The notes: generated from the sequence alone by a model not told the origin. Shown: positions 22,567-22,830, counted from the first letter of the stretch. The stretch is DNA of 64,000 bases from an uncultured Candidatus Saccharibacteria bacterium (GCA_964432405.1 CAYSNH010000001.1:122932-186931), one strand, 5' to 3'. Numbers and translations are program-made.

Positions 22567-22782
22567 ATGAAGAGGCTGCTTTACCTTAGTTTGCCGCTGA
22601 TGGCACTTTTCATTAGTGGTTGCGCGGTGGGAGCTGGTTTCCAAATCGGCTCCCAACATCGCTGTGTTGGCTCCGCCTTCTACAGCGAAGCAGGGCGAGA
22701 TGGATCCCAAATCATCTCCGCCACCCAAGTTGGCAAGCATCGACTTGCCATCAAATCAAAAACCGGTGTCCGAAAGGACTAG
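22567..22782 (+). CDS. Small lipoprotein (71 aa), G+C-rich relative to the surrounding genome
   Basis: RBS AGGA 7 nt upstream of the ATG. A signal peptide with lipobox LFISGC is followed by Gly-rich segments (GCAVGAGFQIGS…) reminiscent of glycine-zipper lipoproteins. A strong terminator lies immediately downstream. Confidence 0.55.
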   Translation: MKRLLYLSLPLMALFISGCAVGAGFQIGSQHRCVGSAFYSEAGRDGSQIISATQVGKHRLAIKSKTGVRKD

Positions 22783-22786
22783 GTTC

Positions 22787-22830
22787 ACCCCTCCCTCCCG
22801 TATTACGGGAAGGAGGGTTTCTTTTTATAA
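22787..22830 (+). terminator. Rho-independent terminator
   Basis: Hairpin CCCCTCCCTCCCG-tattac-GGGAAGGAGGG followed by TTTCTTTTT. Confidence 0.7.

What the first reader, a model, noticed from the sequence alone, without database searches (positions are those of the whole stretch)
22567..22830. G+C-rich small lipoprotein gene with its own promoter and strong terminator embedded in an AT-rich genome
The 216-nt gene is visibly much richer in G+C than its neighbours (many GCG/GGC/CCG codons). It carries a consensus-like -35/-10, a good RBS, a lipobox signal peptide (LFISGC) with Gly-rich glycine-zipper-like segments, and a near-perfect GC hairpin terminator. This has the look of a recently acquired, independently transcribed foreign cassette, placed between a lone pilB and yebC-ruvC.
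Basis: partly seen in the sequence, partly recalled or inferred. Interest (0 to 1): 0.55.

Follow-up and report, generated by a model that had tools for sequence, protein, structure and literature searches.

The report
Orphan small lipoprotein gene, hairpin-packed mRNA
This is a real, separately transcribed gene for a tiny (71-residue) membrane-anchored lipoprotein found only in one narrow group of Patescibacteria; its high G+C comes mostly from codon choices that make the mRNA fold into hairpins, not from recent foreign origin.

Summary
Window 22567-22782 is the G+C-richest stretch of the 64 kb (0.53-0.55 against 0.36; GC3 0.55 against 0.29). It has a 10/12 sigma-70-like promoter, a Shine-Dalgarno site, a lipobox signal peptide and a strong hairpin plus T-tract.

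It is a protein gene, not an RNA gene. Three diverged lineages keep the start, lipobox Cys, stop and frame at the same site between pilB and yebC. They differ by an in-frame 6-nt indel, and changes in the conserved core SGCAVGAGFQ fall on third codon positions. There is no Rfam match.

The family is tiny. A HMMER scan of 1.84 billion representatives found one true relative. There is no Pfam, NCBIfam, PDB or viral match.

"Recently acquired foreign cassette" is only partly supported. The cassette is missing from the same pilB|yebC junction in two more distant relatives, so it is a lineage-specific gain. However, it has since diverged vertically as far as its neighbours, and no donor exists.

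About two thirds of the G+C excess is synonymous. The native coding sequence folds far better than synonymous permutations (z = -4.2) or genome-style recoding (-84.8 against -52.8 kcal/mol). Similar hairpins recur in all three lineages.

Most likely this is a fast-evolving envelope lipoprotein made from a structure-stabilised, lpp-like monocistronic mRNA. Modest interest.

The parts
22434..22497 (.). Upstream half of the divergent pilB / lipoprotein-gene intergenic region. It is highly conserved and contains a first TTGACT box at 22473-22478.
   Evidence: It is nearly invariant among window, L001 and L006 and L064-L066, although four-fold sites of the flanking genes differ by 35-47%. A regulatory role is inferred, not tested.
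22498..22526 (+). Sigma-70-like promoter: -35 TTGACT, 17-nt spacer, TG-extended -10 AATAAT.
   Evidence: 10 of 12 matches. The -35 box is identical in all lineages; the -10 is TGTAATAAT, or TGTATTAAT in L066. The transcription start near 22532-22534 is inferred only.
22544..22575 (+). 5' hairpin. CCUCUUU (22544-22550) pairs with GAAGAGG (22569-22575). The Shine-Dalgarno site AAAGGA (22555-22560) and the AUG lie in or next to the loop.
   Evidence: Predicted in the single fold and in the consensus fold. Of 7 pairs, 5 are invariant and 97% of cells are paired across 5 sequences.
22567..22782 (+). Coding sequence of the 71-aa prolipoprotein. The signal peptide is codons 1-18 and the lipobox is I-S-G-C, with Cys19 at 22621-22623. 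The mature part is 53 residues including Cys19.
   Evidence: ORF. Conserved ORFs of 73-74 aa are present in L006, L064, L065, L066, L067 and L068, with an in-frame 6-nt indel. Substitutions by codon position fall in the order 3 > 1 > 2.
22592..22752 (+). Run of five hairpins inside the coding sequence, at about 22592-22620, 22628-22655, 22659-22687, 22693-22722 and 22729-22750.
   Evidence: The transcript folds with z = -6.4 against dinucleotide shuffles. The coding sequence folds with z = -4.2 against synonymous-codon permutations, and at -84.8 against -52.8 +/- 5.2 kcal/mol when recoded with genome codon usage. Hairpins recur at corresponding positions in separately folded L006 and L066. In the consensus, 92% of cells are paired and 6 pairs change on both sides.
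22624..22719 (+). Possible internal duplication. Two 30-nt copies (22624-22653 and 22690-22719) lie 22 codons apart and encode AVGAGFQIGS and AGRDGSQIIS.
   Evidence: 73% identical direct repeat. It is a two-copy family and could be chance.
22788..22826 (+). Intrinsic terminator: a G+C-rich hairpin CCCCUCCCUCCCG / CGGGAAGGAGGG followed by UUUCUUUUU.
   Evidence: Inverted repeat I2, 14-nt arms, 93% complementary, also recovered by folding. It is retained with changed sequence in L006, L064 and L066.
20769..22433 (-). Divergently transcribed pilB-type (T2SSE) ATPase gene; this is context, not part of the cassette.
   Evidence: Pfam T2SSE label. It is divergent from yebC also in L006-L009.
22854..23843 (+). 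Downstream yebC-ruvC; this is context, and begins 27 nt after the terminator tail.
   Evidence: Pfam labels and ORFs.

Best explanation
Window 22498-22826 is a self-contained monocistronic unit. It has a strong sigma-70-type promoter, a 5' leader of about 35 nt, a 71-codon ORF and an intrinsic terminator. It encodes a lineage-restricted orphan prolipoprotein.

Shown: the ORF is a real coding sequence maintained in three diverged Patescibacteria lineages at the same site. It evolves much faster than its neighbours. Its mRNA is unusually rich in stable hairpins, and these depend on atypical G/C-ending synonymous codons.

Inferred: the precursor is exported by Sec, diacylglyceryl-modified on Cys19 by Lgt and cleaved by signal peptidase II. 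This leaves a mature peptide of about 53 residues, probably poorly ordered, tethered to the outer face of the cell membrane. The hairpin-packed, terminator-capped transcript is a stability and expression device of the kind known for E. coli lpp, a short, stable, heavily translated lipoprotein mRNA. On this reading the G+C island reflects RNA-level selection plus a Gly/Ala/Ser/Arg-rich peptide, not recent import.

The cassette entered, or arose in, the ancestral pilB|yebC divergent intergenic region before the three lineages split.
For: Coding status:
- Homologues lie at the same position in L006 (Patescibacteria UBA11618), L064/L065, L066 and L067/L068.
- Start, K/R n-region, lipobox (ISGC, MSGC, TSGC or LSGC), Cys33 and stop are all kept.
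- The indel is in frame.
- In the invariant core SGCAVGAGFQ the nucleotide changes are all third-position.
- L006 against L066 shows 22/11/32 differences at codon positions 1/2/3.

Not a known RNA: no Rfam family at gathering score, or at E <= 10, apart from terminator look-alikes.

Vertical history: four-fold divergence is 0.43-0.50 against 0.35-0.47 in pilB, ruvC, PBP and ruvB.

Fast protein evolution:
- Identity between lineages is 55-66% against 75-92% for the neighbours.
- Within lineages there are 14 non-synonymous and 3 synonymous variable sites, against 10 and 11 in pilB plus yebC (Fisher p = 0.04).

RNA structure and composition:
- Folding z = -6.4.
- z = -4.2, -2.1 and -1.3 against synonymous permutations for window, L066 and L006.
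- Native -84.8 against -52.8 kcal/mol when recoded with genome codon usage.
- Expected G+C from the amino acids with genome codon usage is 0.417, against 0.531 observed and a 0.362 gene mean.
- Hairpins recur in independent folds, with some compensatory pairs.

Signals conserved.

lpp parallel: a 38-nt leader, 78 codons, a 50-nt 3'UTR and a stable, abundant message (PMC5924895).
Against: - No expression, lipidation or mRNA half-life data exist.
- lgt and lspA were not looked for outside the window, and their motifs are absent within it.
- The structure model of the protein is uninformative (pLDDT 46).
- The structure signal is strong only in the window lineage. L006 has z = -1.3, and its G+C at shared four-fold sites is only 0.10.
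- The consensus structure was derived from the same five sequences it was scored on, and only three lineages are independent.
- The stem/loop G+C contrast is also seen at codon positions 1 and 2, so it is partly circular.
- The ribosomal protein genes L20 and S20 do not share the codon bias, so 'highly expressed' is not supported by codon usage.
Confidence: 0.68

Rival explanations
1. Horizontally acquired cassette from an unsampled G+C-richer donor. The gene was imported before the three lineages split, and its G+C-rich codons are un-ameliorated donor composition.
For: - The gene is absent from the same pilB|yebC junction in L008 and L009.
- Its codon usage is the most deviant in the window (z = -5.3).
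- It brings its own promoter and terminator.
- The L006 lineage has four-fold G+C of only 0.10 at shared residues, against 0.50 in the window and 0.38-0.53 in L066. This could be amelioration in progress.
Against: - No homologue exists anywhere outside the clade.
- There are no flanking repeats or mobility genes.
- Synonymous divergence equals that of the neighbours, 0.43-0.50 at four-fold sites, so there has been ample time to ameliorate.
- The arrangement of the G/C codons, not only their number, produces the structure (z = -4.2 against permutations that keep codon usage). Donor composition alone does not predict this.
Confidence: 0.17
2. A structured non-coding RNA gene whose G+C-rich sequence happens to contain an open frame. 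The lipoprotein look is fortuitous.
For: - The G+C island lies in an A+T-rich genome.
- Folding z = -6.4 on the + strand and -4.8 on the - strand.
- Several frames on both strands are open.
- Hairpins are conserved, with some pairs changed on both sides.
- Window against L001 shows 5 of 6 differences at codon position 1.
Against: - No Rfam family matches.
- The lipoprotein frame alone keeps start, lipobox, second Cys and stop in all lineages.
- The indels inside the ORF are multiples of 3.
- Third-position changes dominate in the conserved core.
- The in-register antisense frame is broken by a stop in L066, and the +1 frame is not conserved as protein.
- The position-1 excess faded with more variants, to 10/2/5 over 17 sites.
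Confidence: 0.04
3. A dual-function transcript. The mRNA encodes the lipoprotein and also acts as a regulatory or structural RNA, in the manner of RNAIII/hld, SgrS/SgrT or SR1/SR1P. Alternatively it is a hok-like type I toxin message, held inactive by its fold.
For: - The structure goes beyond what the protein and its codon usage require.
- Hairpins are kept where the peptide is not, for example RDGSQIIS / KRSESNFAS / ERGNSEFVT.
- The leader and promoter are very conserved.
- There are few synonymous changes within lineages.
Against: - No promoter-like site lies on the opposite strand in 22300-23000.
- No target or seed can be named.
- The Shine-Dalgarno site sits in a loop and is not sequestered.
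- Covariation support is weak: the covariation term is -0.32 kcal/mol, and 6-7 of 500 shuffles reach the observed values with only 3 independent lineages.
- The L006 lineage shows little excess structure.
Confidence: 0.09

Closest known systems
Braun's lipoprotein gene lpp of Escherichia coli (as a gene and mRNA architecture)
   Same: Both are short monocistronic units for a small prolipoprotein: a 38-nt leader, 78 codons and a 50-nt 3'UTR in lpp (PMC5924895), against about 35 nt, 71 codons and about 45 nt here. Both have a strong promoter and an intrinsic terminator. The lpp message is known to be stable and heavily used.
   Different: There is no sequence similarity and no Pfam LPP match. 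There is no heptad coiled coil and no C-terminal Lys for peptidoglycan attachment; the C-termini here are ...RKD...RKE and ...KKEN. The host is a Patescibacterium, presumably without an outer membrane. Expression level and mRNA stability here are inferred, not measured.
Entericidin A/B and other very small bacterial lipoproteins (YgdI/YgdR-type, glycine-zipper SlyB/Pcp, Rickettsia 17-kDa antigen)
   Same: The size class is the same (40-75 aa precursors). All have a lipobox signal peptide and a Gly/Ala/Ser-rich mature part. This protein has one AxxxGxxxG run just after the lipidated Cys.
   Different: None of these families matched any of the six members in Pfam at E <= 10, nor the window protein in NCBIfam. 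The conserved motifs here, CAVGAGFQ(I/V)G, CVGS(A/G)F(Y/H)S and ATQ(V/I)GKH, are not those of any described family.
Lineage-specific abundant lipoproteins such as WP_009060351 of Methylacidiphilum fumariolicum
   Same: This is a taxonomically restricted lipoprotein recognised from its signal peptide, with no wider homologues (abstract of PMC10260701).
   Different: That protein is 139 aa, is shown to be highly expressed and is associated with peptidoglycan. Nothing comparable has been measured here.
Structured coding transcripts (hok-type type I toxin mRNAs; dual-function sRNAs)
   Same: Both are small ORFs embedded in a compact, highly folded transcript ending in a terminator.
   Different: There is no antisense promoter, and the ribosome-binding site is not sequestered. 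The product has a cleavable lipoprotein signal rather than being a bare hydrophobic toxin helix.

Membership tests
Bacterial prolipoproteins (Lgt/LspA substrates) | N-terminal positively charged n-region followed by a hydrophobic h-region of about 7-22 residues | tested here: met
   M-K-R followed by LLYLSLPLMALF. K2 and R3 are invariant in six members. AlphaFold models residues 4-17 as the only helix.
Bacterial prolipoproteins (Lgt/LspA substrates) | Lipobox [LVI...][ASTVI][GAS]-C, with an invariant Cys at +1 within about 35 residues of the start | tested here: met
   The lipobox is ISGC (window), MSGC or TSGC (L006 type) and LSGC (L066). S17-G18-C19 are invariant. The Pfam LPAM_1 model gave only one weak hit (E = 0.37, 1 of 6 members).
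Bacterial prolipoproteins (Lgt/LspA substrates) | Genome encodes Lgt and signal peptidase II | not tested
   A motif scan of the 64-kb window found neither. The rest of the 228-kb contig and the genome could not be read.
Bacterial prolipoproteins (Lgt/LspA substrates) | Diacylglyceryl modification and globomycin-sensitive cleavage of the product | not testable with these tools
   This needs labelling or mass spectrometry.
Entericidin / glycine-zipper (SlyB, Pcp, YMGG) / Rickettsia 17-kDa antigen families | Significant match to the family profile | tested here: not met
   hmmscan of all six members against Pfam-A at E <= 10 returned only DUF7012 (E = 0.14), PLipase_C_C (0.084) and LPAM_1 (0.37), all below their cut-offs. 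NCBIfam gave nothing for the window protein. HMMER's filters can drop hits above about E = 0.1.
Braun lipoprotein (Lpp) | Heptad-repeat coiled coil and a C-terminal Lys for peptidoglycan linkage; match to the LPP profile | tested here: not met
   There is no profile match. No helix is predicted after the signal peptide. The C-terminal residue is D, E or N.
Any described RNA family (Rfam 15) | Covariance-model score at or above the gathering threshold | tested here: not met
   The window scan found only tmRNA and two tRNAs. A sensitive scan of 22380-22900 gave only sub-threshold terminator look-alikes.
Type I toxin-antitoxin locus | Overlapping or adjacent antisense RNA gene with its own promoter; a small hydrophobic toxin without a cleavable signal | tested here: not met
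   There is no promoter-like site on the minus strand in 22300-23000. The product has a lipoprotein signal and a hydrophilic mature part. The consensus scan is crude, so this is a weak test.
Recently transferred genomic islet | Atypical composition, plus presence/absence among close relatives, plus an identifiable donor or mobility signature | tested here: inconclusive
   Composition is atypical. The gene is absent only in distant relatives and present, with co-divergence, in all three close lineages. There is no donor and no terminal repeats.

The most novel reading that the evidence does not exclude
The transcript is under selection as an RNA as well as a message. A series of five or six hairpins is maintained across lineages by compensatory and synonymous change while the peptide between the conserved motifs drifts. 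If so, this is either a dual-function RNA or a purpose-built, nuclease-resistant mRNA in an A+T-rich, reduced Patescibacteria genome. The gene may also have arisen de novo in the pilB|yebC divergent promoter region, since it has no relatives anywhere.
Probability: 0.15. Interest if true: 0.55.

Novelty: new member of a known kind. Interest (0 to 1): 0.3.

Why it matters
It has three lineages and no Pfam or NCBIfam entry, in Patescibacteria, whose envelope and host-contact proteins are poorly known. Fast-evolving surface lipoproteins are plausible mediators of episymbiont-host or phage interactions.

It is also a cautionary example for genome scanning. A sharp G+C and codon-usage island with its own promoter and terminator looks like horizontal transfer, or like an RNA gene. 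Here it is better explained by mRNA secondary structure imposed on synonymous sites of a vertically inherited gene.

If the structure-for-stability idea were confirmed, it would show that an lpp-like design for expressing a small lipoprotein arose independently of E. coli lpp. None of this overturns current understanding.

Tried and rejected
1. Structured ncRNA (my first suspicion, from the G+C island and folding z = -6.4). Rejected on ORF conservation, the in-frame indel and the codon-position pattern, and on the lack of any Rfam hit.

2. Overlapping gene in the +1 sense frame or the in-register antisense frame. This was prompted by 5 of 6 window/L001 differences, and 5 of 6 L006/L064 differences, falling on codon position 1. 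Rejected for three reasons. The antisense frame has a stop in L066. The +1 frame peptide is not conserved. With the L067/L068 variants the counts became 10/2/5 over 17 sites (chi-square computed by hand, p about 0.06).

3. Known small-lipoprotein families: no profile match.

4. Solved structures: only one chance-level hit, E = 1.5.

5. P0003, a 627-aa repeat protein (E = 1.3e-4, 25% identity). Judged a compositional match, not a relative.

6. AlphaFold model. pLDDT 46 and only the signal helix, so no fold search was run.

7. Phage or viral source: none.

8. Translational selection for high expression. The ribosomal protein genes L20 and S20 have ordinary GC3 of 0.29-0.31, so the bias is not the genome's 'optimal codon' set.

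9. Mobile-element ends. Only A/T-rich chance repeats flank the cassette.

10. Third-position G+C in stems (0.67) against loops (0.27). Suggestive, but positions 1 and 2 show the same contrast, so it is not independent evidence.

Full report
**1. What is at the coordinates**

- Composition. In 200-nt windows G+C rises from 0.28-0.40 to 0.55 at 22600-22799. In 216-nt windows over the whole 64 kb (mean 0.363, sd 0.049) the maximum, 0.551, is at 22601.
- ORF. The ORF 22567-22782 encodes MKRLLYLSLPLMALFISGCAVGAGFQIGSQHRCVGSAFYSEAGRDGSQIISATQVGKHRLAIKSKTGVRKD.
- Codon positions. G+C by codon position is 0.556/0.472/0.556, against roughly 0.45/0.31/0.19-0.27 in pilB, yebC, ruvC and the PBP gene.
- Codon usage. 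GC3 lies 4.5 sd above 396 reference windows of 71 codons. Synonymous codon usage lies 5.3 sd below them, beyond their extremes.
- Promoter. TTGACT-17-AATAAT with an upstream TG (10/12) at 22498-22526 is the only promoter-like site on either strand of 22300-23000.
- Ribosome-binding site. AAAGGA lies 6 nt before the ATG.
- Terminator. A 13-14-bp G+C hairpin (22788-22817) is followed by TTTCTTTTT.
- Neighbours. These are a PilB-type ATPase (divergent), then yebC and ruvC.

**2. RNA gene or protein gene?**

A G+C island in an A+T-rich genome, open in several frames and folding with z = -6.4 (-4.8 on the other strand), first suggested a structured RNA. Rfam gave nothing: only tmRNA and two tRNAs in the window, and only terminator look-alikes in a sensitive scan of 22380-22900.

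Comparative data settled the question. Related loci were recovered through YebC, through a peptide-pattern scan of metagenomes and through exact-protein look-ups. Homologous elements lie at the same place, between pilB and yebC, in three lineages:

- the window type: the window itself, L001 = L063, and L002-L005;
- the L006 type: Patescibacteria group bacterium UBA11618, plus L064, L065, L067 and L068;
- L066.

All keep the ATG, the K-R n-region, the lipobox Cys, a second Cys, the motifs CAVGAGFQ(I/V)G, CVGS(A/G)F(Y/H)S and ATQ(V/I)GKH, and a stop at the equivalent place. The one indel inside the ORF is 6 nt. In the invariant core the differences are silent third-position changes: TGC/TGT, GCG/GCT, GTG/GTT and GGA/GGT. 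L006 against L066 differs at 22/11/32 sites in codon positions 1/2/3.

The alternative frames fail. The in-register antisense frame carries a stop in L066, and the +1 frame peptide is not conserved. This is a coding gene.

**3. How restricted is it?**

- The word-indexed search of 5.8 billion clusters found only a 93%-identical variant.
- A full HMMER pass over 1.84 billion representatives found one true relative (P0002, L006 type) and one compositional hit.
- Pfam, NCBIfam and PDB-sequence profile searches gave nothing significant.
- Viral contigs and phage records gave nothing.
- AlphaFold models only the signal helix (pLDDT 46).

**4. Was it recently acquired?**

Partly yes, mostly no.

- Lineage-specific gain. 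In L008 and L009 (YebC 53% and 50% identical) pilB and yebC are divergent and directly adjacent, about 24 and 57 nt apart, with no such gene. L007 has other cargo there, an unrelated 128-aa lipoprotein ORF followed by a G+C-rich stretch. The divergent junction is therefore ancestral and the cassette is a lineage-specific gain.
- Not recent. Among the three lineages the gene differs at 43-50% of shared four-fold sites. This is like pilB, ruvC, PBP and ruvB (35-47%) and above yebC (20-30%). It has co-diverged vertically for as long as these lineages have existed.
- No donor, mobility gene or meaningful terminal repeat is present.

**5. Where the G+C comes from**

With the genome's codon usage these amino acids would give 0.417 G+C. 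The gene mean is 0.362 and the observed value is 0.531. About one third of the excess is therefore amino-acid composition and two thirds is synonymous choice. The ribosomal protein genes L20 and S20 do not share the bias.

The synonymous choice is tied to RNA folding.

- The native coding sequence folds at -84.8 kcal/mol. Permutations that keep the protein and the codon counts give -66.5 +/- 4.3 (z = -4.2, 0 of 200). L066 gives z = -2.1 and L006 z = -1.3.
- Genome-style recoding gives -52.8 +/- 5.2.
- Third positions in predicted stems are 67% G/C against 27% when unpaired (p = 0.002). Positions 1 and 2 show the same contrast, so this is partly circular.
- Hairpins recur at corresponding places in independent folds of the three lineages, including over a stretch where the peptide differs: RDGSQIIS, KRSESNFAS and ERGNSEFVT.
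- On the consensus structure, 92% of cells pair, against 38-54% in slid controls. Six pairs change on both sides, against 0-3.
- Caveats: the covariation term is small (-0.32 kcal/mol), only three lineages are independent, and the structure was derived from the same alignment.

**6. Evolutionary tempo**

The protein is 55-66% identical between lineages whose neighbours are 75-92% identical. Within lineages there are 14 non-synonymous and 3 synonymous variable sites, against 10 and 11 in the pilB and yebC segments of the same contigs (Fisher p = 0.04). The mature peptide is therefore under weak or diversifying selection around a few fixed motifs. This is usual for exposed envelope proteins.

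By contrast, the promoter and leader region 22434-22566 is far more conserved than neutral sites.

**7. Best reading**

This is an orphan, clade-restricted small prolipoprotein expressed from its own compact unit. Its message is packed with stable hairpins and capped by a terminator. The closest functional analogue is the E. coli lpp transcript: a 38-nt leader, 78 codons, a 50-nt 3'UTR, and a stable, very heavily translated message (PMC5924895). The protein is not an Lpp homologue. It has no coiled coil, no C-terminal Lys and no profile match.

Export, lipidation on Cys19, surface exposure and mRNA stabilisation are all inferences.

Rivals, in order of weight:
- ancient horizontal transfer from an unsampled donor;
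- a dual-function RNA;
- a pure RNA gene (very unlikely).

**8. Verdict**

The gene is a new member of a known kind, of modest interest. The most interesting residue is possible RNA-level selection on a coding transcript and the gene's unexplained origin.

Noticed in passing
window 45679-46680 (-): A 333-aa ORF with G+C 0.47 and GC3 0.49. It is the second most G+C-rich stretch of the window and lies next to tRNA-Ile (46810-46881). It has no Pfam match and no Rfam match, and could be another compositionally atypical orphan gene.
   Followed up: partly
window 23914-24072 (+); L008 4076-4258: A 52-aa extremely acidic ORF (…DEDEVDDDILEEEGDEDY) lies directly after ruvC. A similarly acidic 60-aa ORF sits at the same position in the distant relative L008, so it appears to be a conserved small acidic protein. 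It has no Pfam match.
   Followed up: partly
window 22434-22530: The divergent pilB / lipoprotein-gene intergenic region is almost invariant across three lineages whose four-fold sites differ by 35-47%. It holds two TTGACT boxes 25 nt apart (22473 and 22498), which suggests a shared regulatory region.
   Followed up: partly
window 22624-22653 and 22690-22719: A 30-nt direct repeat (73% identical) lies inside the coding sequence, 22 codons apart, encoding AVGAGFQIGS and AGRDGSQIIS. It hints that the mature peptide is an internal duplication, but it may be chance.
   Followed up: no
L007 1948-2334 and 2212-2809: In a relative with 60% identical YebC, the same pilB|yebC junction holds an unrelated 128-aa lipobox ORF. 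This is followed by a G+C-rich stretch open in several overlapping frames on both strands, which may hold tRNA genes; no tRNA scan was run on it. This junction seems to be a recurrent landing site for small independently expressed genes.
   Followed up: partly
window 17012-19173 (-): DNA polymerase I is split into separate ORFs, the polymerase domain at 17012-18301 and the 5'-3' exonuclease at 18301-19173 (Pfam labels).
   Followed up: no
window 307-652 (-): A tmRNA gene (150 bits) with the tag peptide GNVNRTPALAYA. The first 280 nt of the window, downstream of it, are also G+C-rich (about 0.50) with no Rfam match.
   Followed up: partly
window 22561-22563: A second in-frame ATG lies two codons upstream of the conserved start (MLMKRLL…). 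It is absent in L006 and L066 and too close to the Shine-Dalgarno site, so 22567 is taken as the start.
   Followed up: yes
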